A stretch of DNA of 55,013 bases from a virus (IMGVR_UViG_3300022074_000052:1-55013); one strand, 5' to 3'. Positions 6,012 to 39,884 are shown, numbered from the stretch's first letter. Notes: generated by a model not told the origin, from the letters alone. Numbers and translations are program-made.

Positions 6012-6331
6012 TGGCAAACACATTTAAAAATGCAAAAGTAGACCTATCAAGCACAAGCATAACCACGCTGTATACATGCCCTGCAAGCACCACAGCCATT
6101 GTAAAATCTATATTAGTATCTGAAGACTCAGGTAACGCTGATACTATAACATTGACCCTAACAAGTGGGTCGGATGTGTTTAGTCTTTATAAAGTAAAGG
6201 CTGTAAGTGCTAATGCCACGGTAGAACTGCTGTCTGCACCCCTCGTTGTAGATGCTTCAGAGATATTAAAGGTAACAGCAGCAACGGCTAACAGACTGCA
6301 CGTAGTAGCTAGTTTGCTAGAGGTAACGTAA
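6011..6331 (+). CDS. Small beta-rich virion protein (paralog of 54534..54860)
   Basis: Likely start ATG at 6011 (TAATG coupling), MANTFKNAK...TLYTCP...IVKSILVS. Confidence 0.7.
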   Translation: MANTFKNAKVDLSSTSITTLYTCPASTTAIVKSILVSEDSGNADTITLTLTSGSDVFSLYKVKAVSANATVELLSAPLVVDASEILKVTAATANRLHVVASLLEVT

Positions 6332-28559: not shown

Positions 28560-28998
28560 TATTCTTCTCCTTCATAGCGCATTCGTATTCAATACCAACG
28601 TACGCCATGTTATCTACGTAGTGATCTTTTTTCAACGGACTTGTCTGTCGCCTTGCTAACTTCGTTGCCTGGTGTACCAGAGTGATGTCTCTCGCTGTAA
28701 GACGTTGTCCTGTGATAGCATTATATATACGTGCGATATGTTCGTGGTTGTCCACAGCATCACCATAGTCTTTATTACGATCTGTAGCTGTGAGGCTCGA
28801 CGCTTCACCAAGTAGCTGACAGCGGACGGGGGGTTTGGACTCTGCTAGGATAACTTCTTTTGGTGTGCCTGATTCATTAATAATCTTCAAAGCATAACCA
28901 TACGATACCTTACACGCTTCTGCTACTTTTCTGGGCGTGTCAAGTCTGTTCTTGAGTATGTACTTCCAAACTCTTTCTCTCTTAGTGTTTGTACGCAT
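28540..28998 (-). CDS. DUF6378-like protein with N-terminal HTH-like segment
   Basis: L.EA..L...DRNKDYG....N...IA..........K.AR......D.YVD...Y. Confidence 0.7.
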   Translation of the reverse strand: MRTNTKRERVWKYILKNRLDTPRKVAEACKVSYGYALKIINESGTPKEVILAESKPPVRCQLLGEASSLTATDRNKDYGDAVDNHEHIARIYNAITGQRLTARDITLVHQATKLARRQTSPLKKDHYVDNMAYVGIEYECAMKEKNSGLNNS

Positions 28999-29108
28999 TG
29001 TAATTTCTCCTCTTCTCTTAGTTGTTTAATTAAATAATCTCTGTGCAACTTGGCGTTCTCACGTGCCTTTTTCAATCGCTCAGATACCTTTCTAACAATA
29101 ACAGTCAT
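28923..29108 (-). CDS. Small hypothetical protein
   Basis: ATGA-coupled to the upstream ORF; overlaps the downstream gene. Confidence 0.5.
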   Translation of the reverse strand: MTVIVRKVSERLKKARENAKLHRDYLIKQLREEEKLQCVQTLREKEFGSTYSRTDLTRPEK

Positions 29109-29275
29109 TTCTTCTTACCTTTATTGTTAAACTGGTCAGGTTGAATAAGACCTTTTGCAATGTCACGTCTTATCATGGCTTTGTACTTCTTAATTGTCTC
29201 TGGTTTGAGGTAACGTATTTGCCTTAGTCTTTCATCTTTGGCAATCGGCTTTAATTTAAATCTATCATCTGTCAT
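29105..29275 (-). CDS. Small basic hypothetical protein
   Basis: Not in ORF track; MTDDRFKLKPIAKDERLRQIRYLKPETIKKYKAMIRRDIAKGLIQPDQFNNKGKKK*; ATGA overlaps at both ends. Confidence 0.65.
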   Translation of the reverse strand: MTDDRFKLKPIAKDERLRQIRYLKPETIKKYKAMIRRDIAKGLIQPDQFNNKGKKK

Positions 29276-29499
29276 TTCATAAACTCTGGTTTTGGTAATG
29301 GTATTTTAACCTCGACTATAAAGTTGTCCACCTCTACACAGTTTGCTTTTCCAATTATTGGGTCACGCACTTGTTTTAGGCTCTGCGCTACGTACATGCA
29401 CGTTTCGTGGTCGTGAAAGTGAACCCTGCCCATTTCTATATGGTGGTCTGAAATATCTGGAACTAATAGTAAATGCAATACAAAGTAAGTTGTTTTCAT
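29272..29499 (-). CDS. Hypothetical protein
   Basis: Purine-rich leader AGAAAGAGAGAGAC-ATG; two Cys. Confidence 0.6.
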   Translation of the reverse strand: MKTTYFVLHLLLVPDISDHHIEMGRVHFHDHETCMYVAQSLKQVRDPIIGKANCVEVDNFIVEVKIPLPKPEFMK

Positions 29500-29519
29500 G
29501 TCTCTCTCTTTCTTTAGGT

Positions 29520-29702
29520 TGCCCCCCTTCTAAGAGGGGGGTCTAAGTTTTTACATGCCCTACCATGATGAAGTTACAGGGAAGGATATATGATAAACCT
29601 GCCTTCACCGCAGTGGATTTCGATTAATATGCTTACATGTGTGTCCTCAACGCTCTCACTGCTTACGTCCTACCAAGACAAAAATAATAAAAACTTGGTA
29701 GA
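29520..29702 (-). ncRNA. Candidate structured small RNA (four hairpins, one loop antisense to early-gene RBS)
   Basis: Stems 29670-77/29694-701, 29610-15/29657-62, 29567-80/29598-609 and 29522-27/29536-41; no minus-strand ORF. Confidence 0.5.
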
Positions 29703-30026
29703 TTATTCGTACTGAACTGGGAAGTCCATCTCTTCTATACCTTTGAGTATATTCTCTATATCCATCATGTTCTCTTCGTTAACTACACAGGCGATGCCTC
29801 CCGCTACACCTATGTCTGTTAAGTTCTTATCCTGTAACGGTGTAGGTTTGTTTTTCCCAGCCTTACATTCAAACGCAAAGAAGTTACCTCTATGGCAACC
29901 AACAATATCAGGCACTCCGCTACGTCCATACCCACCTGTGACTGGGTAGAAGTAATACGCTCCTAACTGCTTGAGTTGTTCCGTTACCTTCTTTTTTACT
30001 TTTGCTTCTGGAGTCATCACCATCAT
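29703..30026 (-). CDS. VRR-NUC domain nuclease (Holliday junction resolvase-like)
   Basis: TPEAKVK...GYGRSGVPDIVGC..G.F.AFECKA....PT.LQ; start could be 30017. Confidence 0.85.
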   Translation of the reverse strand: MMVMTPEAKVKKKVTEQLKQLGAYYFYPVTGGYGRSGVPDIVGCHRGNFFAFECKAGKNKPTPLQDKNLTDIGVAGGIACVVNEENMMDIENILKGIEEMDFPVQYE

Positions 30027-30247
30027 TGCTTGCTGTCCTTATCAAAAAACTTTGCGTCCATCCACGCATCAAAGAATGTAGAATATCTACCTACTACCTC
30101 TCCAGTGTTGATAGCATCTGCGTCTGTACATGTTACTGTGAAGTCATCATCACTTTCATCATAATCTATCATGTGCCACTCTGTGTCCATCGGTAACTTT
30201 ACTGTCACCCCATCTTCCTTTATTTGTTTCATAAACTTTCTTTTCAT
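30023..30247 (-). CDS. Hypothetical protein
   Basis: RBS GAGGG; ATGA-coupled to the next gene. Confidence 0.65.
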   Translation of the reverse strand: MKRKFMKQIKEDGVTVKLPMDTEWHMIDYDESDDDFTVTCTDADAINTGEVVGRYSTFFDAWMDAKFFDKDSKQ

Positions 30248-30275
30248 ATCTATCCCTCAAAAAAACTGGTTTCAA

Positions 30276-30301
30276 TGTGGGCAACTCGAAAGCCACCCAC
30301 A
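30276..30301 (-). terminator. Hairpin (possible terminator or processing site)
   Basis: TGTGGG...CCCACA stem just after the stop at 30306; the T7 run is displaced about 10 nt downstream. Confidence 0.4.
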
Positions 30302-30305
30302 CCAT

Positions 30306-30584
30306 TTAGCTTAGTGAACCACTAACCTCTTTTACATAAATATAAAACTCGCTATCGCTTGCTCTATACCCTATCTCTGAATTATACTCTAACATGGGTT
30401 CAAGCATCATCAGCACTACCAACTTATCTTGAACCCACTTAGGTAGATCGTCTACACTGTCATACCACTCTTTTAATTCACTGTCAACACAATACATACC
30501 TAAACATAACACATGAACTCTTTTCGTATTAACATCTATCTTAACTTGGTATAACGTGTAATCCTGTGTGTTACTGTATGACAT
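30306..30584 (-). CDS. Hypothetical protein
   Basis: Likely start MSYSN at 30584; 'Y.SVDDLP.WVQDKL.VL'. Confidence 0.65.
   Translation of the reverse strand: MSYSNTQDYTLYQVKIDVNTKRVHVLCLGMYCVDSELKEWYDSVDDLPKWVQDKLVVLMMLEPMLEYNSEIGYRASDSEFYIYVKEVSGSLS
30309..30327. promoter_or_regulatory. 19-bp palindromic operator-like site 1
   Basis: GCTTAGTGAACCACTAACC. Confidence 0.75.
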
Positions 30585-31422
30585 AAAACATATTGTCTCC
30601 TGCCTTATAGCCCACGTCATCGACAAAGCCTTCACCCTCTAACACGTTAAGAGACATTACCTTACCTTTGATCTCTTCAGGCAGAGTTGCAACAGAGTAC
30701 TCCTCGTAAGGCATATCAGCCCACGACCCTACATAGTTAACATCTTTCGTACACACGATATAGGTTTCGTTACCCCACTTCATGTAAGCATAAACAAAGT
30801 ATAAGTTGAGTTTTTTCTGTTTATCCTCAAACCACTCCTTGCGTTTAGCGACCATCTCTAACACGTTATCATGCAGTTCTTTGTCCAAGAATGTATGTCC
30901 GTTCTCTACTAGGCTTACCAACTCAAGTGCCATCTTCTCTCTGTTGCCACCCTCTAAACCTATCTTATGTTGGCACTCGCTGTAGGCATGCGCGAACTTT
31001 TTACGCACTTGCTCGAACGCCCTATTGATACTTGAATACTCTTTCTGCGCTACCACGCCCCAAGGTATAGGTCTGAGATATGCTTTCGCGTTTCGTATAG
31101 CTTGGTGCATGTTTACAGACATTTTCATATTATAGTTATCGTTGTAGTCAGCATACTTGTCATTGCATATGTTAGGTGATGACACACAAAAGTGTTCGAG
31201 CTGCCTTTCAGCATTTTCTCTTGGGTCGCCAAAGTATAAGCACCCCATAGGATATGGGTGTCCTTCCATATGCACAAACTTGTAATAGTCATTAGTATAT
31301 GTACCAAACTTGATACCTCTAATGGCTTTTCGCACCTCTCTACAAAACTTATCAATAGGTTCGTTCGTAGTCGGTTGGTATTCTGTTAGGTCGTTTACCC
31401 TTATGTCAAATTTTCTATCCAT
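30571..31422 (-). CDS. Hypothetical early protein
   Basis: 283-aa ORF; RBS AAGGAG; C-terminus 'Y....LPEEI..KV..L......VG' resembles the downstream ORF. Confidence 0.75.
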   Translation of the reverse strand: MDRKFDIRVNDLTEYQPTTNEPIDKFCREVRKAIRGIKFGTYTNDYYKFVHMEGHPYPMGCLYFGDPRENAERQLEHFCVSSPNICNDKYADYNDNYNMKMSVNMHQAIRNAKAYLRPIPWGVVAQKEYSSINRAFEQVRKKFAHAYSECQHKIGLEGGNREKMALELVSLVENGHTFLDKELHDNVLEMVAKRKEWFEDKQKKLNLYFVYAYMKWGNETYIVCTKDVNYVGSWADMPYEEYSVATLPEEIKGKVMSLNVLEGEGFVDDVGYKAGDNMFYVIQ

Positions 31423-31618
31423 TACGCTCTCCTTCTCTCTCTATCTTCACGTACTGACGTGTTAGTTTGTGTTTAAAATAATAGTATTCTTTGTCTACGT
31501 GCATGAGCATGTAAAAGTTTTTCATCTGCTCAAACGACCTCTCAAACATCTGCTTCACGTTATCAGGTGTTAGCAAGTCACCGTGTACCACTGCTGTGGC
31601 GTATGTATCATTCTTCAT
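31415..31618 (-). CDS. Hypothetical early protein
   Basis: RBS AAGGAG; overlapping coupling. Confidence 0.65.
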   Translation of the reverse strand: MKNDTYATAVVHGDLLTPDNVKQMFERSFEQMKNFYMLMHVDKEYYYFKHKLTRQYVKIEREGERNG

Positions 31619-31805
31619 TGTACATCTCCTTTCTCCACTTTTTAATTTTGTCTTTTAGTTCGTTAGCATAGATAGTCCTTCCCACAGCAAGTATACTGTC
31701 GTCGGGTTCATCTTCTCTCGTTTTCCATGCCTTATCCAACTCCTTCTCAATCTTCTTGAGTAACTTGTGACAGTCCTCAAGATATACACCACTCCATTTA
31801 GCCAT
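31608..31805 (-). CDS. Hypothetical early protein
   Basis: RBS GGAGGGAG before ATG 31805 (MAKW). Confidence 0.65.
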   Translation of the reverse strand: MAKWSGVYLEDCHKLLKKIEKELDKAWKTREDEPDDSILAVGRTIYANELKDKIKKWRKEMYNEE

Positions 31806-32154
31806 TACTCCCTCCATAATTCATGTAGTCAACAAACCATCGCATGAATGAGTTACAGTTGATGTTAGTTGATACACAACCACACCTAAACTGGTCAGGT
31901 AGAAACCTAAACTCGTACTGCCACTCCATACCCTTGGGGTGATAGAAGTACAAGTCACCTGCACCATAATTTACGTAACCAATTTTACTACGCTCTATAA
32001 CTCTGTGTACTCTCCAAGAAACATGAGCATAGAAAGAACCATCGGGTAATGGGTCGTCTATATCATCTCTACCTCTTGAATACTTGGGTTCGTAAGACAG
32101 TATACGCATCTGCAACGCATGTACCTCTTCTTCACTAAACTTTTTATCAGACAT
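31798..32154 (-). CDS. Hypothetical early protein
   Basis: RBS GGAGGGAG; 118 aa. Confidence 0.7.
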   Translation of the reverse strand: MSDKKFSEEEVHALQMRILSYEPKYSRGRDDIDDPLPDGSFYAHVSWRVHRVIERSKIGYVNYGAGDLYFYHPKGMEWQYEFRFLPDQFRCGCVSTNINCNSFMRWFVDYMNYGGSNG

Positions 32155-32611
32155 CTACTCCCTCCTTCAGTTTTTTAAATGAATCATCGTCGTTAAATAC
32201 TAATACGGCAGGTTCTATTTCCATTCGTTCATCACAAACCTCCTCTAACTCCTTACAGTTCTCGCCCTCGTCTCCACTTGTGGCTCCATCTTCTCCCACA
32301 GTTAGTTCTCTGTAGGCATACTTGAACCCATCTCTTTCCTTGGCAAACTGTTCAACCACTTGGAACAATTTTCGAAACGCTTGCACGTCATCGAACTCGT
32401 CGTACCACTTCACGTAAGTTGTTCGGTACTCCATCATACAATACCCCCCAGTATTACCATCGGGGTCAAACTCACGCTCGTATATTGTCCAATGATTAAA
32501 CACATCTTCTCGTTGCACGTCAGGGTGCATCTTGTACACAGACAAAACTTCTTGTAAGTCATCCCAATCTTTTAGGACAACGACAAGACCAACGTCACTA
32601 TAGTAACCCAT
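32147..32611 (-). CDS. Hypothetical early protein (MGY.SDV type)
   Basis: RBS GGAGG; 'VKWY.E..DV', 'GED' motifs. Confidence 0.7.
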   Translation of the reverse strand: MGYYSDVGLVVVLKDWDDLQEVLSVYKMHPDVQREDVFNHWTIYEREFDPDGNTGGYCMMEYRTTYVKWYDEFDDVQAFRKLFQVVEQFAKERDGFKYAYRELTVGEDGATSGDEGENCKELEEVCDERMEIEPAVLVFNDDDSFKKLKEGVDV

Positions 32612-33549
32612 TACTTCACCTCCTCTGTTCTAGCTTCATGTATGTTCTTGGTAAGACCGAGTGTCTTGTTAACCCATCTGTTCCAACTCACTCTGACCTT
32701 GGACGCATGCTCTTGGTCTTTGACTTCTTGAACTCCTTGATAACCGTATAACGGGCTACCACGTAACCAATCAACAGCAAGATGTAAACGCATGGGGTGT
32801 TTCTCGTCACGCATGATGTTCTTGTACAGTTCTATCTGTTCTTTGTGATATTGCTTTACCCCATACCGATTACTGAAATTATTTATCTTGTTCTCGTTCA
32901 TGTAATCGGTTAACTCTCTCTGCATCTTGTAGTTGTACTCCCAATCATTCACGGGTAACATGGCGTACACAGTTGATATCCACTCGTAGAACTTGTCCGC
33001 ATGAGGTTTAATCTCTGCCTTTGCATCCTTGTTTACTTGGGTCATGGCGTGTCGGAATACGTACTCCTTACCAATGTGTTGCCACGTAGCGTGTTTACGT
33101 GCAAACTGTAGTGACTTACTAATGTCCTTGGGTATATAGAAGTCTTTCTCACCATCGCCTTCCTTTGTCCACTCTCTATCTTCGTCGTAGTTCGTATGTC
33201 TCTGCGTCTTACGATTCATGCTGATGTACTGTCTACCCGAACTGCCAAGAATGAAGAAACGTAGGTCATGAGGTAACAAGTTATCAAGAAACGTGTAACA
33301 ATCGGTATACCCGTTGTTACGTATGGTTATGACTTCGATGTCTTGTTTCATCTCCCACGATACTATCGTGTCACCATTCAGCATCATGTCGTAATGTGTG
33401 TCCGACCTTTTGAGTATGTACTCTCGTCTGCCATACGCTCTGTCACCTATCGGTATGTAATTCGTACCACGTATGGGGTTAGTGTTTGCATACCTTAGAG
33501 ATATGTCTCTGAAATTATTTACTCTGTGATTTGTATGTCTTAATACCAT
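32611..33549 (-). CDS. Hypothetical early protein
   Basis: Probable start ATG 33549 behind GAAAGGATATATC. Confidence 0.75.
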   Translation of the reverse strand: MVLRHTNHRVNNFRDISLRYANTNPIRGTNYIPIGDRAYGRREYILKRSDTHYDMMLNGDTIVSWEMKQDIEVITIRNNGYTDCYTFLDNLLPHDLRFFILGSSGRQYISMNRKTQRHTNYDEDREWTKEGDGEKDFYIPKDISKSLQFARKHATWQHIGKEYVFRHAMTQVNKDAKAEIKPHADKFYEWISTVYAMLPVNDWEYNYKMQRELTDYMNENKINNFSNRYGVKQYHKEQIELYKNIMRDEKHPMRLHLAVDWLRGSPLYGYQGVQEVKDQEHASKVRVSWNRWVNKTLGLTKNIHEARTEEVK

Positions 33550-33572
33550 GATATATCCTTTCAATTGGTAAA

Positions 33573-33591
33573 GGTTAGTGAGTCACTAACC
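33573..33591. promoter_or_regulatory. 19-bp palindromic operator-like site 2 (perfect palindrome)
   Basis: GGTTAGTGAGTCACTAACC, intergenic. Confidence 0.8.
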
Positions 33592-33593
33592 AC

Positions 33594-34802
33594 TTAAAGA
33601 TTTTCTGACTTGACGTGTAACGTCTTGCCAACTTTTGAATGAGTGTTCTTGTTATCCAAGATTACCCATAGTGTAGGGCAAGCCCACTTACCCCACGAAC
33701 CACCCAAGTAACCATCTGTTAGAACAATAGTTGCTTGGGGTTTGATACCATGCTCTGCCATATATTCGGGAACGCATGATACTTCTGTGCCACCACCTCC
33801 ACGTGGTTTTGTGGATTGTGGTAGGTCATCTAGCTTGTCCATCTCATACACCTCGTCACGACATACCTGTGTATCCCAGTAAAGTACACGTACCTTGCTA
33901 GGTTTTACTGTGTCGCATATGCCTTTGACTTCTGACAGGAACGTGGTCAACTCTCGCTGACCAATAGAACCTGATGTGTCGATAGCCAATACCAGTTCCT
34001 CGACCTTCTCCGATATGCCACTAGGCATTATCAAGTCTAGGTGTAGATACCGTCTGTTAGGTTTGTTGTATGTTGAGAAGTCACCACCTGCGCATGTATC
34101 GGTGATGAAGTCACGCAACACTTCACGCCAGTTGACTTGTGGTTCTAGAAATTGTTCGAGTGTCCTATCGCCACCTGACCCAGTCTTCCCTGCGACCAAC
34201 GCACCCTGACGTATTACGTCGTCAATATCCTTCGCCAGTTCTTTCTGTTCCTCGTCGGATATGCCTTGTGCATCTTCCCAACCGTGATCGTCCAGTGGCT
34301 TACCACCTTGACCATCGTTAGGCTGACCACCACCTTGCTTTTTCTTTTTGTACAAAGCATTGAATATCTCTGGAACACTCATGTTAGCATACTCTTCGCT
34401 GTAACAACCTATAGTCAACGCACCAGTCATAGTTGCAAACTTGTCGTCTTTGTTGTCCTCGACGAGCTTGTGGTTTATCCAGAAGTCACACGCCATGTTC
34501 GCGCACTCTGGGTCTGTCTTATGCAAGCCATAGTATATGTGTAGATGACGTGCTAACTTGTGATAGTTCTCATGCAATACCAAAAACCGTAGCTCTGGGT
34601 CGTTCAAGCTATCACAGAAACCACGACCATAACTCTCGTCGCGTCCGTTGGTGCAAGCAGTAGGAATGTCATCTCTGACACTCCTATTACCAATGGCAAG
34701 TAGTCCTGCTAGTGCAATGTACTTGTCGTTCATCATGATATCTGATACTGCCTTCTGTAGTCGCTGTTCGACAGTAAGATTTTGTTTAATCAATAGGTTC
34801 AT
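33594..34802 (-). CDS. DUF2201-type metallopeptidase plus vWA domain protein
   Basis: TACTNG, LHENYH (HExxH), N.ACD..IN; MIDAS DTSGS; GGGGT, LTDG; start MNLL at 34802 behind AAAGGAG. Confidence 0.85.
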   Translation of the reverse strand: MNLLIKQNLTVEQRLQKAVSDIMMNDKYIALAGLLAIGNRSVRDDIPTACTNGRDESYGRGFCDSLNDPELRFLVLHENYHKLARHLHIYYGLHKTDPECANMACDFWINHKLVEDNKDDKFATMTGALTIGCYSEEYANMSVPEIFNALYKKKKQGGGQPNDGQGGKPLDDHGWEDAQGISDEEQKELAKDIDDVIRQGALVAGKTGSGGDRTLEQFLEPQVNWREVLRDFITDTCAGGDFSTYNKPNRRYLHLDLIMPSGISEKVEELVLAIDTSGSIGQRELTTFLSEVKGICDTVKPSKVRVLYWDTQVCRDEVYEMDKLDDLPQSTKPRGGGGTEVSCVPEYMAEHGIKPQATIVLTDGYLGGSWGKWACPTLWVILDNKNTHSKVGKTLHVKSENL

Positions 34803-35008
34803 GTTTTCTCCTTTCCTATCTTCTCTACTTTTATTGACAGTAAATCTTTCCAACTGTGGGTCGGGTGATATACTGGGTGGTCAAGAAACAATCTGCGTAT
34901 GTGTCTCCTACGTATAGCCTTCGCGGGGTCAACTTCATGTTTCTGACATAACGAGTCAAAGTGTATTAACCACTCTTCGAACTTCGGTCCGATTAACCTA
35001 CTACTCAT
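34799..35008 (-). CDS. Small hypothetical protein
   Basis: Between ATPase and vWA genes; G-rich RBS; ATGA-coupled to the vWA gene. Confidence 0.55.
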   Translation of the reverse strand: MSSRLIGPKFEEWLIHFDSLCQKHEVDPAKAIRRRHIRRLFLDHPVYHPTHSWKDLLSIKVEKIGKEKT

Positions 35009-35017
35009 TCACGCCCC

Positions 35018-36115
35018 CTATCTCTTGTCTGCTTGATAAAGATGTTGGTTCTTCGTCGCCCACTCTGTGAACTTAGCGTTAGTCATTACGATAGATTGAT
35101 GCTGATAGTTCTTGGCACGAACACCGTTAACGAATATGGATTGCACCTCTTCATCTAGTCTAACAAGATACTCCATGAACGGTGTCACAAAGTCTCTGCT
35201 CATAGAACCAAGCGAACGAAAGATAACCATGACCTTGGCACTTACGCTATCAGGTATCTTCGCTGTCTGTGGACTGTTCTTGATATCGTCACGGCTAGGC
35301 AACTGACCAAGCAGTTTGACGTATGCCATCAAGTCCAATGCACCACGTTCGCCAATCGTACCAATCAATGCTGACGTTAGTATGTTGTCTCCTAACGTGT
35401 CACGCTTGTGTACCAAGTCGCTTGCTATGTGCAGACCACGTGGCGTAACAAACGCTGTACGCTGTTGATTGGGGTGAAAGATGTATGGGTTGTCGTCTGG
35501 GTTCTTTACTTCTTCGAACGAGTGAAACAACTGTGGTGTGTCTTTCGCCCAACCAAGAACTGACGAGTTGATGCCATTGTTTAGACCCCACGCTAGCCAC
35601 TCTGTGTTTGTAGACTTACGTACGGTGATAAGAACTATCCTGTCACGTTGATGTGCTTCAAGCATATCGCCCACACCTTCGGAACCTTTGTTCGTTGTAC
35701 CAAAGATAATACTGTCTGGGTGTAACGTGTTATTGCCCAACTGTCTTTCTAGTACCAACCTGGTTAACGCCATCTTCACCGACTTGTTTGCTTTACCAAA
35801 CTCGTCGAGGTCAATGATTACTGGCTTGTCCTTGATGTGCAAACCAAACTCTTCATTCGGTACGAACGATACGTAGTCTTGGTCGCCATTCGCTTTGAAC
35901 TTCGGCATCATGATATCGCCCAAGTCTTTGGTAGTGCAGTCAACGTAGCACGGTATGTGATTGGGTAGTTCCTTGGCTAGCATCTTCAATACTGAAGATT
36001 TGCCATTACCCATGTCACCTTGTAACAAGACAGTACGCTGTGTACCGATTTGAAGTATGAGATCTTTACACTCTTCAAGACCGAGTGCGTATGTTGCTTT
36101 TCCTATGTTTTGCAT
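35018..36115 (-). CDS. MoxR-like AAA+ ATPase
   Basis: Walker A GDMGNGKS, Walker B IDLDE, TTN, TPR; adjacent to the vWA partner. Confidence 0.85.
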   Translation of the reverse strand: MQNIGKATYALGLEECKDLILQIGTQRTVLLQGDMGNGKSSVLKMLAKELPNHIPCYVDCTTKDLGDIMMPKFKANGDQDYVSFVPNEEFGLHIKDKPVIIDLDEFGKANKSVKMALTRLVLERQLGNNTLHPDSIIFGTTNKGSEGVGDMLEAHQRDRIVLITVRKSTNTEWLAWGLNNGINSSVLGWAKDTPQLFHSFEEVKNPDDNPYIFHPNQQRTAFVTPRGLHIASDLVHKRDTLGDNILTSALIGTIGERGALDLMAYVKLLGQLPSRDDIKNSPQTAKIPDSVSAKVMVIFRSLGSMSRDFVTPFMEYLVRLDEEVQSIFVNGVRAKNYQHQSIVMTNAKFTEWATKNQHLYQADKR

Positions 36116-36138
36116 AATATATCCTTTCTATGCGTTAG

Positions 36139-36157
36139 GGTTAGTGAACCACTAACC
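36139..36157. promoter_or_regulatory. 19-bp palindromic operator-like site 3
   Basis: GGTTAGTGAACCACTAACC, intergenic. Confidence 0.8.
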
Positions 36158-36159
36158 GA

Positions 36160-37047
36160 TTACCAACCAAGTGATTTGATTGAATTGATTGCGTCATCAA
36201 CACTTTGCTTTGTGTTCTGACGTAGCCTATCATCCTCGCGTAGTGCGTCGGGTGATATACCTTGGAACGTGTCTGACAACTGACGTGTCAACGTTTGTAG
36301 CCTTGCGTCTTGGTTCGACATGGGAACAAGCAAGTCTTCGAGCATACCTGTAATATTAGTCGTTAGGGTATCACGGAATACTTTCTTGTCCTCGTCGGTA
36401 GAGTAGTCTAGACGCTCGGATACGTTCTTCAAATAGACAACAAGTTTCTGCATCATGTTATCGATAGCCTTACCGAACATAGAGTTGTAGTGATTGTCGT
36501 AATCTTCACGCAATGCTTTCTCTTGCTCGTTGCCCATATCCACACGGAAGTCACCACTTGTCGGAAGTGGTACAAAACTCATTCGCCATGAGAACTTGCC
36601 TTGTAACACGTGAGCAGGTGGATAGTTGTCTTGGTGGTACAAGTCCCCTAGTAACGTCTGTGCGTTGACCACTGCGTCCTCATAGATATCAAAGAAGACA
36701 TTGACCAAGTTGTGAAACTCTTGCTCCAAGTTAGTCATGTGTTGCTTGTACTTGAAGAACGTAGCTGTAGGTAGCAGACGCATACCCATGTCTGACCAAG
36801 GTAGTGTCATGGCATAGTGCTGATTACGTGCATTGCCAACAAACTGTTGAATAGCTTTCAGTTCGGGGCAGTTACCCAACAACTTCTTATGAACACTCGC
36901 CACGTTAGGGTCGGTCTTCTTTGCCAACTCTAGTTCTGTCGATGCGTTCTTGTCTTGCTTGCGACCCGTCCAGACAGATGCGTTATATTCGACCAACATA
37001 GCAGAACTTGTTATGCTTGGTGCAGATGTTTCGATTTTGTTTTCCAT
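36160..37047 (-). CDS. DUF3150-like protein
   Basis: 'WTGRKQD...TLPWSD.G.RLLP...F...Y....LGDL....YP......KF'; start MENK at 37047 behind GGAGG. Confidence 0.6.
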   Translation of the reverse strand: MENKIETSAPSITSSAMLVEYNASVWTGRKQDKNASTELELAKKTDPNVASVHKKLLGNCPELKAIQQFVGNARNQHYAMTLPWSDMGMRLLPTATFFKYKQHMTNLEQEFHNLVNVFFDIYEDAVVNAQTLLGDLYHQDNYPPAHVLQGKFSWRMSFVPLPTSGDFRVDMGNEQEKALREDYDNHYNSMFGKAIDNMMQKLVVYLKNVSERLDYSTDEDKKVFRDTLTTNITGMLEDLLVPMSNQDARLQTLTRQLSDTFQGISPDALREDDRLRQNTKQSVDDAINSIKSLGW

Positions 37048-37051
37048 GTTA

Positions 37052-37369
37052 TTAACCTCCAAAGATTGCCCATAGTAGTATGCCAAAACCTAGCATACCG
37101 ATGAATAAAGCCATAAGGCTCACGAACTCGGCAAACATTGCCAAGAACTTATTTTCAATATCGTCGATTGATTTACCGTTGAGACGCATACCGAAAAATC
37201 TGTCAGACCTTCTGTCTTGTTCGAGTAGGTCGGGTAAACTCTTTATGAACTCCATCTCTTTCTTGGCTTTCGTTAGTGACTCACTAACCTCTTCACCTGC
37301 GTCGAACTGGATAATTCTATCGTCTTGCTCGACTTCCTTGATGTAATTTTCTGTTGGTTTATTTGTCAT
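37052..37369 (-). CDS. Hypothetical membrane protein (C-terminal TM)
   Basis: Start MTNK at 37369 behind AAGGAG; hydrophobic C-terminus. Confidence 0.65.
   Translation of the reverse strand: MTNKPTENYIKEVEQDDRIIQFDAGEEVSESLTKAKKEMEFIKSLPDLLEQDRRSDRFFGMRLNGKSIDDIENKFLAMFAEFVSLMALFIGMLGFGILLWAIFGG
37271..37289. promoter_or_regulatory. 19-bp palindromic operator-like site 4 (intragenic)
   Basis: CGTTAGTGACTCACTAACC. Confidence 0.75.
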
Positions 37370-37379
37370 ATCTTTCTCC

Positions 37380-37637
37380 TTAGTTACTTGTTTTGTTGTT
37401 GATGCCAACAAGGTCACTCTTACGAGTTACCACGACGTAGTTGGACTTGTGTACTGGCGCTATACAATACTTCACTTTACGTGCTATCGACTCACCACAT
37501 GATAGGCAAACGTTGTAGCCAAGAGCCGCACGTCGAGGGTCGAACTCGTCACCACAGTTTTCACATGGTATGCTTAGTGAATCACTAACCCACTTGCCAG
37601 TGTCGGGGTTGATGAACTTGTAGAACTTACTGGTCAT
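37380..37637 (-). CDS. C4 zinc-finger protein (DksA/TraR-like finger)
   Basis: CENCGDEFDPRRAALGYNVCLSC; first gene after a consensus promoter. Confidence 0.65.
   Translation of the reverse strand: MTSKFYKFINPDTGKWVSDSLSIPCENCGDEFDPRRAALGYNVCLSCGESIARKVKYCIAPVHKSNYVVVTRKSDLVGINNKTSN
37572..37590. promoter_or_regulatory. 19-bp palindromic operator-like site 5 (intragenic)
   Basis: GCTTAGTGAATCACTAACC. Confidence 0.75.
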
Positions 37638-37681
37638 AATTTGTATCCTTCTAAAAATTTACTCTTTTTTGATTATGACTT

Positions 37682-37710
37682 ATTATAGCATATATACCCT
37701 AACTTGTCAA
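37682..37710 (-). promoter_or_regulatory. Consensus sigma70 early promoter with extended -10
   Basis: Minus strand TTGACA-17 nt-TATAAT with TG at -15/-14. Confidence 0.85.
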
Positions 37711-37988
37711 GTAATACCGAGATTTTACTTTTGGTATTATCAAATTAAGTTTTACGTTACTTACTAAGCTACGGTGTAATGTACTGTAATGTACTCGAAT
37801 GTTCTGTTGTGTACGTCTGTAAGTATTTGATATTATTACAATGTTCTAATGTTCTCTTTTTTGGGGAATTGTGAAGGGGTGGCGGAACGTCTGTAAGAGG
37901 GCGAACATTACATACGCAAAGGTCGGTCGAGAGAATGTTGTCGCTCAATTTTTTAAAAATAGAACATTATATATATATATATAATATA

Positions 37989-38007
37989 GGTTAGTTATTC
38001 ACTAACC
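37989..38007. promoter_or_regulatory. 19-bp palindromic operator-like site 6
   Basis: GGTTAGTTATTCACTAACC, adjacent to the (TA)n run. Confidence 0.7.
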
Positions 38008-38016
38008 CTATGCTAT

Positions 38017-38046
38017 CAGATGTCACCAGATGTCACCAGATGTCAC
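38017..38046 (+). repeat. Perfect 10-bp tandem repeat x3
   Basis: CAGATGTCAC CAGATGTCAC CAGATGTCAC. Confidence 0.95.
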
Positions 38047-38250
38047 AAAAATATAATGTACGTTTTACCCTAAAAAAAAGCGAACATTGCGGAACATTGC
38101 AAAGATAAAAACGAACATTACACCTAGGCTCGACGCTACATAGAAAACTGGCTTCAAAAGGTTAGGCACTAAGCTACATGCTTCAGCAGAAACAGAAAAC
38201 TGGTATCTATCTAACTGGTTTCATATAACTGGCATCAAAAATTTGGACAC

Positions 38251-38282
38251 AAAAAAAGCCACCTAAGTTTCCCTAGGTGGCT
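38251..38282 (-). terminator. Intrinsic terminator after 38298..38978
   Basis: Minus strand GCCACCTAG-GGAAAC-TTAGGTGGC-TTTTTTT. Confidence 0.85.
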
Positions 38283-38298
38283 TAGTGATTGACTAACC
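38280..38298. promoter_or_regulatory. 19-bp palindromic operator-like site 7
   Basis: GCTTAGTGATTGACTAACC, between stop codon and terminator. Confidence 0.7.
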
Positions 38299-38978
38299 TA
38301 CTTGTTTGTTGGGACAGTTATTCGCTGTCTCATAGTCTCTTTTGCCATTGTTAACTGCTTTATGATATTGTCTACATTGGCAAACGTAGTGTCTTTTCTG
38401 TTTTTGATCTTGTTAATCATAATACCTAATGTCTTTATCTGACTATCTTCAAAAGGTAGATTAGGAACTGGGGTAGTTTCTGCTCTTAACCAACCAACCA
38501 ACTTTTTTCTTACTGTGGTTTGTTGCTTGTTCCAGTAATCGAACATTCCCTTATCTTCATTAGATAGTTGAGATTTTCTTTCGTCTCCTGTCATGCAGTA
38601 GATACCATGAATTTTCTTGCCCATGCTTTGGAACATCATATCTTTAATGAATAATGCTTGTTCCACATTGGCAGTACAATTCTCATTGCTTACTTCAAGT
38701 TTGGTAATATCGAAGTGTTGCGGATTTTCAACTGTCACTAACTTACCCTCGGCAGTTCTAGTCTTGAACTTAGGTTCGAAAGCATCAGACTGTTTAAATC
38801 CTAACTTCTTAACAAGTGTATCCTTAACAAACTGCTTTCCAGTCTCGAAAGCTCTATCACTTTCTTCTTTCTTTCTCTCCCCAGTTAGAATGTAAGTGCA
38901 AGCCTCAATAAGTGCAGAGCTTGTTTTATCGTTGATTTGAAAAGAGTTTGTTTTGATTATGTTTGTTTGCTTGTTCAT
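38298..38978 (-). CDS. Hypothetical protein, stand-alone early transcription unit
   Basis: Own promoter, RBS AAAGGA and terminator; flanked by two palindromic sites. Confidence 0.75.
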   Translation of the reverse strand: MNKQTNIIKTNSFQINDKTSSALIEACTYILTGERKKEESDRAFETGKQFVKDTLVKKLGFKQSDAFEPKFKTRTAEGKLVTVENPQHFDITKLEVSNENCTANVEQALFIKDMMFQSMGKKIHGIYCMTGDERKSQLSNEDKGMFDYWNKQQTTVRKKLVGWLRAETTPVPNLPFEDSQIKTLGIMINKIKNRKDTTFANVDNIIKQLTMAKETMRQRITVPTNK

Positions 38979-39013
38979 GATTATATCCTTTATTAAACAA
39001 GTTTAAGTTAACA

Positions 39014-39032
39014 GGTTAGTGAAACACTAACC
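39014..39032. promoter_or_regulatory. 19-bp palindromic operator-like site 8
   Basis: GGTTAGTGAAACACTAACC, downstream of the promoter at 39069-39096. Confidence 0.8.
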
Positions 39033-39068
39033 TAATCAAGTGGGCTTATTCCCTGTCTTGATGAACTC

Positions 39069-39096
39069 ATTATAACAAGTTATTACGTTATGTCAC
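39069..39096 (-). promoter_or_regulatory. Sigma70-type promoter with extended -10
   Basis: Minus strand GTGACA-16 nt-TATAAT preceded by TGT. Confidence 0.6.
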
Positions 39097-39252
39097 AAAC
39101 TACCCCCATACCCTCCCCCATACCACCCTTTTACAAAAGATTGCATCTAGCTGTATATATTACTATTTTACACAAATAAATCACACTTCTCTGAGTTCGA
39201 CCCCCTACCCCCTCCATATATAGAAAGGCCCCCCTTTGGAGTCCCAAACATC

Positions 39253-39282
39253 TTGCGTTTAAAAAATTTTATAGTATATAAT
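39253..39282 (+). promoter_or_regulatory. Sigma70-type promoter for the packaging/late operon
   Basis: TTGCGT-18 nt-TATAAT, ending 8 nt before the terS ATG. Confidence 0.55.
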
Positions 39283-39290
39283 CAAACGAA

Positions 39291-39884
39291 ATGACTATTG
39301 TAGTAGAACCAGAGTTGAACGTACCTATGAAAAAGGGTAGATCTTCGGCTGATCTAAAGGCACGTGTAGGAGCAGCCGCGAACACAGCAAAGGAGTTGGG
39401 AGAGCATGGCATCGACCTTGAACCCACCAAAGAAGACAAAGATACAGCCGCAAGGTTATCCGTTGCTTACGCTGATGATCCTGAAGATGTGTCGAAACAA
39501 GCTACCGAACAGAAAATGGCAACGCTAACCCCCGCCTCTCTTGTCCTAACAGACAGTATTTTGAAGCAGTTTGGTCGTTCTGTGGTTGAAAGTGCTGTAC
39601 AAATACGGCATTTGGTGACAAATAAGCTGATAGAAGAGACTGAAAACCCTGATCCAAGGGTACGTATACGTGCTTTAGAGCTTCTAGGTAAGATTTCGGA
39701 CGTAGGATTGTTCGCTGAGAAGTCCGAAGTCACCATAACACACCAGTCTACGGACGATTTACGGGAAAGATTGCGTTCAAAGCTCACAAAATTGGTAAAT
39801 CCAGTCGAAGATGCGGCTGTAATTGATGGTGAACCCATAGATGTGGACAAAGAACTAGGTTTAGACGAGGAAAAAGGTGAATAA
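39291..39884 (+). CDS. terS: Terminase small subunit (putative)
   Basis: Directly upstream of terL; 'RIRALELLGKISDVGLF.EK.E.T'. Confidence 0.7.
   Translation: MTIVVEPELNVPMKKGRSSADLKARVGAAANTAKELGEHGIDLEPTKEDKDTAARLSVAYADDPEDVSKQATEQKMATLTPASLVLTDSILKQFGRSVVESAVQIRHLVTNKLIEETENPDPRVRIRALELLGKISDVGLFAEKSEVTITHQSTDDLRERLRSKLTKLVNPVEDAAVIDGEPIDVDKELGLDEEKGE

What the first reader, a model, noticed from the sequence alone, without database searches (positions are those of the whole stretch)
30309..39032. Eight co-oriented 19-bp palindromes blanket the early region (stoperator-like array)
Seen: 30309 GCTTAGTGAACCACTAACC; 33573 GGTTAGTGAGTCACTAACC; 36139 GGTTAGTGAACCACTAACC; 37271 CGTTAGTGACTCACTAACC; 37572 GCTTAGTGAATCACTAACC; 37989 GGTTAGTTATTCACTAACC; 38280 GCTTAGTGATTGACTAACC; 39014 GGTTAGTGAAACACTAACC. 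The right end ACTAACC is invariant, so all share one polarity. I noticed none outside 30.3-39.1 kb. Three lie inside coding sequence and none overlaps a -35/-10 box. Deviations are non-compensatory (G-G, C-C, G-A), favouring a dimeric DNA-binding protein over RNA hairpins. Established: mycobacteriophage stoperators are oriented intragenic repressor sites that block elongation. Inference: a road-block silencing system, or sites for stepwise DNA entry or protection of first-injected DNA.
Basis: partly seen in the sequence, partly recalled or inferred. Interest (0 to 1): 0.8.

Follow-up and report, generated by a model that had tools for sequence, protein, structure and literature searches.

The report
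Phage-specific palindromes punctuating the early operon
A marine phage marks the first 9 kb of its early operon with eight copies of one 19-bp palindrome, and its relatives do the same with palindromes of their own, probably as binding sites for a fast-evolving early protein of unknown fold.

Summary
Exactly eight copies of GGTTAGTG-N3-CACTAA[CG][CG], read on the transcribed minus strand, lie at the stated coordinates. None lies elsewhere in the 55 kb; 0.01 are expected by chance. The claimed single polarity is weak: 4 of 8 sites are symmetric, and an orthologous site in a relative is flipped.

The feature is family-wide. In 76 of 82 related loci of uncultured seawater phages, one palindrome class recurs at least 4 times. 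The class differs between phages: GTTAGTG, GTAGTG, TTAGGGA, TTTACGG, ACTTAGTC. In complete genomes the sites stay in the early operon, dense at its start.

At orthologous gene junctions only the inner bases of the palindrome are swapped. Deviations are uncompensated and spacing is nearly fixed. Some sites lie upstream of promoters or behind terminators.

The first early gene (38298..38978) is the only gene that turns over completely with the motif. It is predicted to be a symmetric homodimer with no match to a known fold.

Best reading, about 0.5: an operator array for this protein. It resembles stoperators in layout but is not a member of that family. No integrase or resolvase was found, so the phages are probably virulent. 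The scan noted the same motif pattern before on a related genome (e1-6239140).

The parts
39014..39032 (-). Palindrome 1 (GGTTAGTGTTTCACTAACC on the transcribed strand). It lies in the 5' leader between promoter P1 and the first early gene.
38280..38298 (-). Palindrome 2 (GGTTAGTCAATCACTAAGC). It shares one base with the stop codon of the first early gene, and its last 4 bases are part of the terminator stem.
   Evidence: weakest as a hairpin, -4.1 kcal/mol
37989..38007 (-). Palindrome 3. It lies in the non-coding origin-like region, between the terminator and promoter P2, next to a (TA)n tract. In L034 and L038 the same position carries their own TTAGGGA palindrome.
37572..37590 (-). Palindrome 4, in frame inside the Zn-ribbon gene just before the first CxxC. 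The same position carries the relatives' own palindrome class.
37271..37289 (-). Palindrome 5, in frame inside the 106-aa gene.
36139..36157 (-). Palindrome 6, intercistronic between the DUF3150-like 308-aa gene and the AAA+ gene, 23 nt before the ATG. At the orthologous junction in 12 relatives the flanks are conserved and only the inner bases of the palindrome differ.
33573..33591 (-). Palindrome 7, intercistronic between the vWA-metallopeptidase gene and the 317-aa gene.
30309..30327 (-). Palindrome 8, in the last six codons of ORF 30306..30635. It is followed by a G+C hairpin and the word GAAACCAG, as in relatives.
38298..38978 (-). First early gene (226 aa), flanked by palindromes 1 and 2. 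It is the candidate sequence-specific binder: hypervariable, with no match to a known fold, and predicted to be a symmetric homodimer.
39069..39096 (-). Promoter-like site P1 (GTGACA-16-TATAAT with a TG extension; 11 of 12).
38256..38283 (-). Terminator-like hairpin (12-bp stem and T run) behind the first early gene.
37682..37710 (-). Promoter-like site P2 (TTGACA-17-TATAAT with a TG extension; 12 of 12) for the rest of the early operon.
37380..37637 (-). Zn-ribbon (DksA/TraR-like C4) gene that carries palindrome 4. It is a second, weaker candidate binder, because its tree also follows the palindrome classes.

Best explanation
The eight palindromes are double-stranded DNA binding sites (operators) for a phage-encoded, sequence-specific dimeric protein. 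The binder is most likely the product of the first early gene (38298..38978). That gene is made from promoter P1 as a short transcript of its own and is flanked by two of the sites. As the protein accumulates it would occupy the sites around its own gene, in the origin-like region, behind promoter P2 and at gene boundaries along the first 9 kb of the operon. In this way it would feed back on its own synthesis and turn down host-RNA-polymerase transcription of the early operon, by road-block or by looping between bound dimers. Each phage lineage of this family has its own palindrome and its own version of the protein, so the pair acts as a lineage-specific code. Shown here: the sites, their confinement to the early operon, their class-switching between relatives at orthologous positions, the absence of pairing-type covariation, the turnover of the first gene with the class, and the predicted homodimer. 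Inferred: that this protein binds the sites, and what binding does.
For: (1) The sites are real and confined. The window holds 8 sites against 0.01 expected. In complete relatives the sites lie only in the early operon, dense at its start. G006 has 10 between 28.6 and 42.8 kb of 61.6 kb. G011 has 9 between 48.8 and 60.8 kb of 62 kb. G001 has 9 between 33.3 and 56.2 kb of 64 kb. Reversed-pattern controls gave 0 in the 10 records and at most 1 in those.
(2) Each genome has one class. In 76 of 82 loci one class occurs at least 4 times. The mean is 7.7 sites of the top class against 0.6 of the second class.
(3) At the orthologous junction of the DUF3150-like and AAA genes, 13 loci keep their flanks and the outer TTAG..CTAA. 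They differ in the inner bases: TG-N3-CA, GGAWWTCC or TC-N3-GA.
(4) The pattern is sequence recognition, not pairing. In 158 unique GTAGTG-class sites the mirrored flank positions are no more complementary than chance: pair 4-20 has 64 against 59.4 expected. None of the 16 deviations at pair 10-14 is compensated. Of the mismatched arm pairs, 7 are wobble, 6 are antisense-wobble and 52 are other.
(5) Spacing is nearly fixed: 158 of 163 GTAGTG-class sites have N3, and 29 of 29 TTTACG-class sites have the same spacing. The TTTACGGAATTCCGTAAA and TTAGGGAATTCCCTAA classes are palindromic through the centre.
(6) Some sites lie where little early RNA is expected. The first site is about 26 nt upstream of the -35 of the first-gene promoter in L078. 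Three further L078 sites, and window site 37989, lie between a strong terminator and the next promoter.
(7) On the binder: among 16 early genes compared with 21 relatives, only the first gene loses all BLAST similarity when the class changes, while the others stay at 39-95%. In the clade of 13 close loci with 5 classes, the first-gene tree needs 4 class changes, which is the minimum. The AAA and DUF3150-like trees need 6.
(8) All first genes form one family. The model has pLDDT 85. The homodimer scores ipSAE 0.82 against a best control of 0.00, with partner pLDDT at least 85 and at least 85% of contacts shared between runs. That mark was reached by 20 of 30 proteins solved as pairs and 1 of 23 solved as single chains; the counts hold only roughly, because my own alignment was used.
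Against: No DNA-binding fold or motif was found in the first-gene protein. It has no Pfam or PHROG family. The best Foldseek E-values are 0.86 against PDB and 0.47 against BFVD, and the best VIA-align Z is 7.4, on a helical hairpin only. Its pI ranges from 5.2 to 9.8 across the family.
Over all 44 loci the first-gene tree needs 10 class changes and the AAA tree 12. Outside the close clade, therefore, the association is hardly better than shared descent. The Zn-ribbon tree also needs only the minimum of 4 changes. L039 and L043 carry the GTTAGTG core with first genes unlike the window's.
The first gene, the origin-like region and the Zn-ribbon gene are neighbours, so linkage within mosaic blocks could mimic co-variation.
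There is a strand bias. The central base is C rather than G on the transcribed strand in 79 against 28 unique GTAGTG-class sites and in 35 against 19 GTTAGT-class sites. A symmetric dimer on duplex DNA does not predict this.
Some GC-rich relatives vary the spacer: G001 has 6 sites with N5 and 3 with N6, and L066 has 6, 4 and 1 sites with spacers of 5, 6 and 7. One G001 site is built into a 12-bp terminator stem.
No binding or transcription data exist. The RNA libraries held only sparse contigs.
Confidence: 0.5

Rival explanations
1. The sites act as hairpins in the early transcript. A lineage-specific RNA-binding protein, possibly the first-gene product in the manner of lambda N with nut, would recognise them to reload antitermination, to process or stabilise the cistrons, or to tune translation of the next gene.
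For: The sites occur only in one transcription unit and are co-directional with it. By crude gene calls, 240 of 369 unique sites lie between genes or at gene edges, although such positions make up only 20% of the span. A peak lies 10-30 nt before the next start. All eight window sites can fold, at -4.1 to -11.3 kcal/mol. The window's first site lies between P1 and the first gene, like nutL. The central base is strand-biased, 79 C against 28 G. Spacer length varies in some genomes. One G001 site is extended into a true terminator.
Against: There is no compensatory change and no wobble excess. The stems are invariant within a genome while the loops vary, which is the reverse of N-boxB. Several G001 sites would form only 5-bp A/U-rich stems. 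Two classes are self-complementary through the 'loop'. Some sites lie upstream of promoters or behind terminators. Part of the intergenic bias follows from stop codons within the motif, which leave only one of three frames open (seen directly in the sequence).
Confidence: 0.2
2. The palindromes are recombination or boundary elements. They would be short repeats at gene borders that promote modular exchange, or that are copied by gene conversion, as proposed for boundary sequences and REP-like elements.
For: The sites sit at gene borders. Between L006 and L039, identity jumps from 80-90% to about 100% within 40 nt of the site between the DUF3150-like and AAA genes. An RNA-library contig diverges from the window at 31805 and shows a TTAGGGATTT word about 20 nt beyond that point. 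The first gene behaves like a swapped cassette: 63% identity in L004 beside flanks of 95-100%.
Against: In window versus L004 the divergent block starts about 120 nt before site 1 and ends about 150 nt after site 2, so the sites are not its borders. No transposase, integrase or resolvase was found in 5 genomes. Boundary repeats do not explain why sites sit inside genes at conserved positions, or why they are absent from the mosaic late region.
Confidence: 0.07
3. The sites serve replication or DNA organisation around the origin-like region. They would work like parS/ParB or KorB operators, or as priming or helicase-loading signals.
For: Site density is highest next to the origin-like AATGTTC iteron and AT-rich region and falls with distance. 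The window gaps are 734, 291, 417, 301, 1132, 2566 and 3264 bp, and G006 and G011 show the same trend. One to four sites lie inside the origin-like region.
Against: No ParB_N domain was found in 5 genomes. The sites extend only into the early operon and never into the late genes, which begin about 1.3 kb away on the other side. The replication proteins are conserved across palindrome classes: between the window and G014 the primase is 81%, SNF2 91% and PolA 90% identical. The iterons are conserved across the family while the palindromes are not.
Confidence: 0.07
4. The sites are hairpin promoters of the N4 kind, or other signals for a phage RNA polymerase, one in front of each early gene.
For: Each site would give an 8-bp stem with a 3-nt loop just upstream of a ribosome-binding site. 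On the template strand the loop centre is preferentially G. As I recall it, N4 virion RNA polymerase needs a purine there. An earlier report of this scan, not tested here, relates the AAA and vWA gene pair to N4 gp24 and gp25.
Against: No RNA polymerase was found. The 2014-aa virion protein matches PLxRFG/DarB-like giant proteins and LPD38/39 clusters and has no PDB relative. Near-consensus sigma-70 promoters P1 and P2 head the operon. Some sites lie inside genes or at the operon end.
Confidence: 0.03
5. The sites bind a host factor, or act as decoys or targets in defence and counter-defence. The class would then follow the host rather than a phage protein.
For: The classes differ between close relatives that could infect different hosts. 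The giant virion protein also differs: 47% between the window and G002, and 44% between the window and G014.
Against: The window and G002 share the class although their virion proteins differ strongly. The class follows the first early gene in the close clade. No host is known, so this could not be tested.
Confidence: 0.06

Closest known systems
Stoperators and operators of Cluster A mycobacteriophages (L5 gp71-type immunity repressor)
   Same: Both have many copies of one short site per genome, in promoter regions and in short intergenic spaces of operons read by host RNA polymerase. In both, the site consensus and the binder diversify together between related phages (PMC9283540, passages read; PMC6550527, abstract only).
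   Different: Stoperators are asymmetric 13-mers bound by a monomer with an HTH and a 'stoperator' domain. They are spread over the whole genome, work in one orientation only, and belong to temperate phages. Here the sites are 15-19-bp palindromes confined to the early operon. The candidate binder is a predicted homodimer without an HTH. No integrase or resolvase was found.
Conserved inverted repeats (CIRs) bound by the repressor of Streptomyces phage phiC31 (recalled from memory; the paper is not in the library)
   Same: As I recall them, CIRs are about 17-bp palindromes in many copies, mostly intergenic in the early region. Several are not at promoters, and a phage-encoded protein binds them.
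   Different: phiC31 is temperate and its binder is the immunity repressor. Lineage-specific class switching has not been described for CIRs, as far as I recall.
Lambda N protein with nut (boxB) hairpins
   Same: In both, the first gene of an early operon is hypervariable between related phages, and it is paired with a lineage-specific inverted repeat that lies between the promoter and that gene (recalled from textbook knowledge).
   Different: Lambda has two nut sites, and their specificity lies in the loop of an RNA hairpin. Here there are 8-13 sites, their specificity lies in the arms, and no pairing-type covariation is seen.
ParB-parS and KorB-OB arrays
   Same: Both have several identical palindromes clustered near an origin, inside and between genes, bound by a dimer that can dampen transcription (recalled).
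   Different: No ParB_N domain was found. The sites lie on one side of the origin-like region only and follow the transcription unit.

Membership tests
Stoperator system (Cluster A mycobacteriophages) | The site is an asymmetric 13-mer. | tested here: not met
   The sites are 19-bp palindromes with 8-bp arms. The feature is defined in PMC9283540.
Stoperator system (Cluster A mycobacteriophages) | More than twenty sites are spread through the whole genome. | tested here: not met
   The window has 8 sites, all within 30.3-39.0 kb of 55 kb. Four complete relatives (G001, G006, G011, G012) have 7-10 sites of the searched pattern, all in the early region; those of G012 wrap around the record ends.
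Stoperator system (Cluster A mycobacteriophages) | Site orientation follows the direction of transcription and is needed for function. | tested here: inconclusive
   The window's polarity rests on 4 sites (chance 1 in 8) and is broken in L004 and G001. Family-wide, the central base is biased 79 C to 28 G. Function was not testable.
Stoperator system (Cluster A mycobacteriophages) | The binder is a monomeric immunity repressor with an N-terminal HTH and a stoperator domain. | tested here: not met
   The candidate binder has no HTH family hit and no PDB sequence relative at E up to 1 other than coiled coils. It is predicted to be a homodimer. The only HTH protein in the region is excluded by its 98.5% identity across palindrome classes.
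Stoperator system (Cluster A mycobacteriophages) | The phage is temperate and the sites keep the prophage silent. | tested here: not met
   No Phage_integrase (PF00589) or Resolvase (PF00239) match was found in 5 of 5 genomes, 4 of them complete. Other routes to lysogeny were not tested.
Lambda N / nut antitermination | An RNA hairpin whose loop carries the specificity and whose stem is kept by pairing. | tested here: not met
   The loops vary freely within a genome while the arms are invariant. None of 16 deviations at pair 10-14 is compensated.
Lambda N / nut antitermination | A small arginine-rich, disordered N-like protein. | tested here: not met
   The first-gene proteins of alignment A1 are 158-269 aa (226 aa in the window). 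The window protein folds with pLDDT 85, and pI across the family runs from 5.2 to 9.8.
ParB-parS / KorB-OB | A ParB_N-domain protein is encoded by the element. | tested here: not met
   PF02195 was found in 0 of 5 genomes.
N4-type hairpin promoters | A virion or phage-encoded single-subunit RNA polymerase is present. | tested here: inconclusive
   No polymerase family was found in the large proteins scanned. Distant polymerases can escape such searches.
REP elements with RAYT transposase | An associated Y1 (HUH) transposase, and hundreds of intergenic copies. | not tested
   There are only 8-13 copies per genome. No transposase search was run beyond integrase and resolvase.

The most novel reading that the evidence does not exclude
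A large family of probably virulent marine phages carries a previously undescribed recognition code. A dimeric early protein with no match to a known fold and a matching palindrome set diversify together, so that each lineage marks its own early operon and origin. The pair would work as a self-identity or 'immunity-group' system in phages without lysogeny. It could let a phage shut off, or shield, only genomes that carry its own code during co-infection with relatives, through a new DNA-binding fold.
Probability: 0.2. Interest if true: 0.85.

Novelty: new variant of a known kind. Interest (0 to 1): 0.66.

Why it matters
Multi-site operator arrays that act inside operons are known from a few temperate phages, such as mycobacteriophage stoperators. 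Here the same layout appears in a large, uncultured group of seawater phages that seem to be virulent. The window's DNA was found in runs of 11 studies, and the AAA gene has 157 relatives in IMG/VR.

The sites are palindromic, and they change class between close relatives at fixed positions. The candidate binder matches no known family or fold. If binding is shown, this gives three things:
- a new DNA-binding fold with a readable specificity code: an outer TTAG anchor and 2-3 inner variable bases;
- a natural series of orthogonal protein-operator pairs;
- a handle on how virulent phages time early shut-off, or tell self from related competitors.

It also gives a simple sequence marker for the early operon and its start in metagenomic phage contigs of this family.

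Tried and rejected
Searches that gave nothing useful:
- Megablast of 30000-39300 against 50,697 phage records found no match. No close cultured relative is held. The best protein-level relatives are Rhizobium, Pseudomonas KPP25-like and Vibrio phages at about 29-36% identity.
- The first-gene protein has no family in Pfam or PHROGs. HMMER against 1.84 billion representatives gave only 7 hits. The ESM Atlas gave unnamed viral clusters at 0.82-0.83, which is only a lead.
- BLASTP of the window's first-gene protein against the G001 protein at the same position found nothing, E 29. Their kinship rests on alignment A1 and the HMM built from it.
- RNA evidence: four RNA or possibly-RNA libraries held only short, sparse contigs, so no transcript ends could be read. 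Uncovered parts mean nothing.

Ideas considered and rejected:
- A MotA-like activator site at about -39 of a -10 element. The only TATATT-like words after sites 36139 and 33573 abut the ATG, so no transcript could start there.
- CRISPR-repeat mimicry (Racr). I saw that paper only in the listing. The sites are 15-19 bp with unconserved flanks, so I dropped the idea without a test.
- The Zn-ribbon protein as binder. Its CxxC-N17-CxxC pattern looks like the DksA/TraR type (weak Pfam and PHROG hits). As I recall, such proteins bind RNA polymerase and not DNA. I keep it as a minor candidate because its tree also follows the classes.

Literature searches found no description of this array. I searched for 'stoperator' (24 papers), for five terms on intergenic palindromic repeats in early genes (107 papers, 20 listed), for six terms on operator road-blocks in lytic phages (3 papers), and for phiC31 conserved inverted repeats (1 unrelated paper). 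Subscription journals and supplementary files were not searchable.

Limits of the counts: the gene calls behind one search are crude (longest non-overlapping ORFs on one strand). Site counts use unique site-plus-flank strings. Orthologous sites of related phages are still not independent.

Full report
**1. The observation**

A search with the consensus GGTTAGTGAACCACTAACC and up to 3 mismatches finds 14 strand-matches at exactly the eight stated places. The expectation from 100 shuffles is 0.01. A looser pattern, GGTTAGT-N5-ACTAASS with up to 2 mismatches, returns the same eight places and nothing else in the 55,013 bases. It gives 16 strand-matches against 1.53 expected, and 0 of 100 shuffles reach 16. 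Two earlier patterns of mine had one N too many and are void.

All genes from 39.0 kb down to 19.4 kb are on the minus strand. Read on the transcribed strand, the motif is GGTTAGTG-N3-CACTAA[CG][CG].

**2. The setting in the window**

The window is an IMG/VR virus record, classed as linear and estimated 89% complete. Its DNA occurs in seawater and viral metagenomes of 11 studies.

The minus-strand operon starts at a near-consensus sigma-70 promoter, P1 (39096-39069). The features then follow in this order:
- site 1, in the leader;
- a 226-aa gene;
- site 2, which shares one base with that gene's stop codon;
- a 12-bp-stem terminator;
- a non-coding region of about 550 bp with AATGTTC/GAACATT iterons and a (TA)n tract, which holds site 3;
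- a perfect consensus promoter, P2 (37710-37682);
- a DksA/TraR-like Zn-ribbon gene with site 4 in frame.

Site 5 lies inside the next gene. Sites 6 and 7 lie between cistrons, 23 nt before the next ATG. Site 8 occupies the last six codons of ORF 30306..30635.

Downstream genes encode the following:
- a DUF3150-like protein
- a MoxR-type AAA+ ATPase
- a vWA-metallopeptidase
- PolA
- a PD-(D/E)XK nuclease
- an SNF2 helicase
- an HTH_17 protein
- a DUF927 primase-helicase

The late genes include terminase, portal and a 2014-aa PLxRFG/DarB-like virion protein. No RNA polymerase was found, and no PDB relative of the giant protein. No integrase, resolvase or ParB_N match was found in 5 genomes, 4 of them complete.

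**3. Polarity**

Four of the eight sites are intact at both ends. The four imperfect sites all deviate in the 3' arm of the transcribed strand, which has a two-sided chance of 1 in 8. In relative L004 the orthologue of site 3 has its imperfect half in the 5' arm. In G001 the deviations also lie in the 5' arms.

**4. Relatives**

An exact-pattern scan of IMG/VR found five further contigs with the motif. Three contigs encode relatives of the 226-aa protein, with sites at the same relative positions.

G001 is a complete 64-kb, G+C-rich relative with proteins 23-77% identical. It has nine GTTAGT-N5/6-ACTAAC sites between 33.3 and 56.2 kb, almost all between a stop codon and the next ribosome-binding site. 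The last one is built into a 12-bp stem followed by a T run at the operon end. G001 also has four GTTAGC-N5-GCTAAC sites around its first early gene and iteron region.

The AAA+ protein has 157 relatives in IMG/VR, and the best 80 loci were kept. I examined 82 loci: the window, G001, L004, L006 and L034-L111. In 76 of them one of five palindrome classes occurs at least four times. The mean is 7.7 sites for the top class and 0.6 for the second class.

| Class | Loci |
|---|---|
| GTAGTG-N3-CACTAC | 36 |
| GTTAGT-N5/6-ACTAAC (the window's class) | 26 |
| TTAGGG-N4/5-CCCTAA | 7 |
| TTTACG-N6-CGTAAA | 5 |
| CTTAGT-N5-ACTAAG | 2 |

In whole records the sites stay in the early operon and thin out downstream.

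**5. DNA site or RNA hairpin?**

For duplex-DNA recognition:
- (a) In 158 unique GTAGTG-class sites the mirrored positions outside the invariant arms are no more complementary than shuffles. Pair 4-20 has 64 against 59.4 expected, and pairs 3-21 and 2-22 fall below expectation.
- (b) The 16 deviations at pair 10-14 are never compensated.
- (c) Among 65 mismatched arm pairs in 369 unique sites, 7 are G-T/T-G, 6 are A-C/C-A and 52 are other, so there is no wobble excess. Some of the 'other' pairs reflect genomes whose true arms are shorter.
- (d) Spacing is nearly fixed per class.
- (e) TTTACGGAATTCCGTAAA and TTAGGGAATTCCCTAA are palindromic through the centre.
- (f) In most GTAGTG-class relatives listed the first site lies upstream of the first gene's promoter-like element. 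Several sites lie between that gene's terminator and P2. Window site 3 lies in the same kind of place.

For an RNA or strand-specific role:
- The sites occur in one transcription unit only.
- By crude gene calls, 240 of 369 unique sites lie between genes or at gene edges, although such positions make up only 20% of the span. Part of this follows from the TAG and TAA inside the motif, which close two of three frames.
- The central base is C rather than G on the transcribed strand in 79 against 28 unique GTAGTG-class sites and in 35 against 19 GTTAGT-class sites.
- Spacers vary in some G+C-rich genomes.
- The window sites would fold at -4.1 to -11.3 kcal/mol.

I weigh this as favouring duplex DNA, without excluding RNA.

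**6. Class switching at fixed positions**

I aligned the junction between the DUF3150-like and AAA+ genes in 13 loci. The flanks are conserved, and so are the outer TTAG...CTAA of the site. The inner bases differ by class: TG-N3-CA, GGAWWTCC or TC-N3-GA. The same holds in the origin-like region and inside the Zn-ribbon gene, where the protein sequence gives way to the site. This calls for a trans-acting, sequence-specific factor that differs between lineages.

**7. Which factor?**

I compared 16 early genes of the window with 21 relatives. Only the first gene loses all BLAST similarity when the class differs, while the others stay at 39-95%.

G014 has the ACTTAGTC class. Against it the HTH_17 protein is 98.5% identical, SNF2 91%, PolA 90% and the primase 81%, so these are excluded as determinants. 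The giant virion protein and its neighbour differ strongly between the window and G002, which share the class.

All first genes form one family, with the motifs ISPxxxGSTATxE and YWxxQ. An HMM built from alignment A1 finds a member in 44 loci.

In the clade of 13 close loci with 5 classes, the first-gene tree needs 4 class changes, which is the minimum. The AAA and DUF3150-like trees need 6. L006 and L039 have nearly identical AAA genes but different classes and unrelated first genes.

Three points count against this:
- The Zn-ribbon tree also needs only 4 changes.
- Over all 44 loci the counts are 10 for the first-gene tree against 12 for the AAA tree.
- The first gene, the origin-like region and the Zn-ribbon gene are neighbours inside mosaic blocks.

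**8. The protein**

The AlphaFold2 model has pLDDT 85.3 and pTM 0.69. It is mostly helical with a small beta insert. Foldseek finds nothing at E up to 0.001 in PDB or BFVD; the best E-values are 0.86 and 0.47. VIA-align against 48,161 chains gives at best Z 7.4, and only for the C-terminal helical hairpin. The profile of A1 finds no PDB sequence relative.

Two copies are predicted to form a symmetric dimer. The ipSAE is 0.82 in 3 of 3 runs, against a best control of 0.00. The partner pLDDT is at least 85, and at least 85% of contacts are shared between runs. That mark was reached by 20 of 30 proteins solved as pairs and 1 of 23 solved as single chains; the counts hold only roughly, because my own alignment was used. 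A symmetric dimer fits a palindromic site, but it does not show DNA binding.

**9. Comparison with what is known**

Stoperators are the nearest described system in layout (PMC9283540, passages read). This array fails four of their five defining features (see the membership test) and is inconclusive on the fifth, orientation. It is stoperator-like in architecture only.

From memory, the phiC31 conserved inverted repeats are a closer formal match: palindromic, intergenic and in the early region. They belong, however, to a temperate phage's repressor, and I could not read that work here.

My four literature searches found no description of this array or of the protein family. The scan itself noted the same kind of palindrome set on a related genome (e1-6239140).

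**10. Verdict**

The best reading is a lineage-specific operator array for a dimeric early protein with no match to a known fold, acting on the early operon, with confidence 0.5. An RNA-level role has 0.2, and the other rivals are smaller. The novelty class is a new variant of a known kind, and interest is 0.66.

Noticed in passing
window 37740-38250; L029 10200-10500 (G001): The AATGTTC(G)/(C)GAACATT iterons of the origin-like region are kept between the window (about 40% G+C) and the G+C-rich G001, although their proteins are only about 50% identical. A conserved protein must read them, distinct from whatever reads the palindromes.
   Followed up: partly
window about 39101-39131 (minus strand); the same place in about 20 relatives: A G-rich word (GGGGTAGGGTATGG-like) is conserved just upstream of the first early promoter or first palindrome in nearly all relatives, whatever their palindrome class. 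Its function is unknown.
   Followed up: no
window about 30250-30300 and 38150-38250; L038 about 11720, L046 about 14930, L078 about 14700: The word GAAACCAG(TT) recurs in the origin-like region. It also recurs, after a G+C hairpin, just downstream of palindrome 8 and of that site's orthologues in relatives. This may mark a second control or origin element.
   Followed up: no
window 38015-38047 and 39088-39096 (minus strand): GTGACATCTG occurs three times in tandem just before palindrome 3, the first copy as TTGTGACATCTG. The word TTGTGACAT also forms the -35 region of promoter P1.
   Followed up: no
L029 8727-10785 (G001 28727-30785): G001 carries two palindrome classes. GTTAGC-N5-GCTAAC occurs 4 times around the first early gene and iteron region, and GTTAGT-N5/6-ACTAAC occurs 9 times along the operon. 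They differ by one mirrored base pair.
   Followed up: partly
window 38137-39153 against L004: The first early gene with its promoter and terminator is a swapped block: 45-82% DNA identity in most 40-nt windows, beside flanks of 95-100%. Palindrome 1 stays conserved inside the block.
   Followed up: partly
L006 about 6218-6258 against L039: Identity between two relatives jumps from 80-90% to about 100% within 40 nt of the palindrome between the DUF3150-like and AAA+ genes. A recombination joint seems to lie at or next to a site.
   Followed up: partly
window 13085-19129: The 2014-aa virion protein is a PLxRFG/DarB-like giant protein with an LPD39 domain. It is only 44-47% identical even in close relatives, so it is probably an injected anti-restriction or host-range factor.
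   Followed up: partly
window 38298-38300; L029 16592 and L030 9616 (G001): At G001 36592 and 49616 the TAG stop of the upstream gene runs into the palindrome. In the window the stop shares one base with site 2. The TAG and TAA inside the motif close two of three reading frames, so intragenic sites are possible in one frame only (V-S-x-S-L-S/T).
   Followed up: yes
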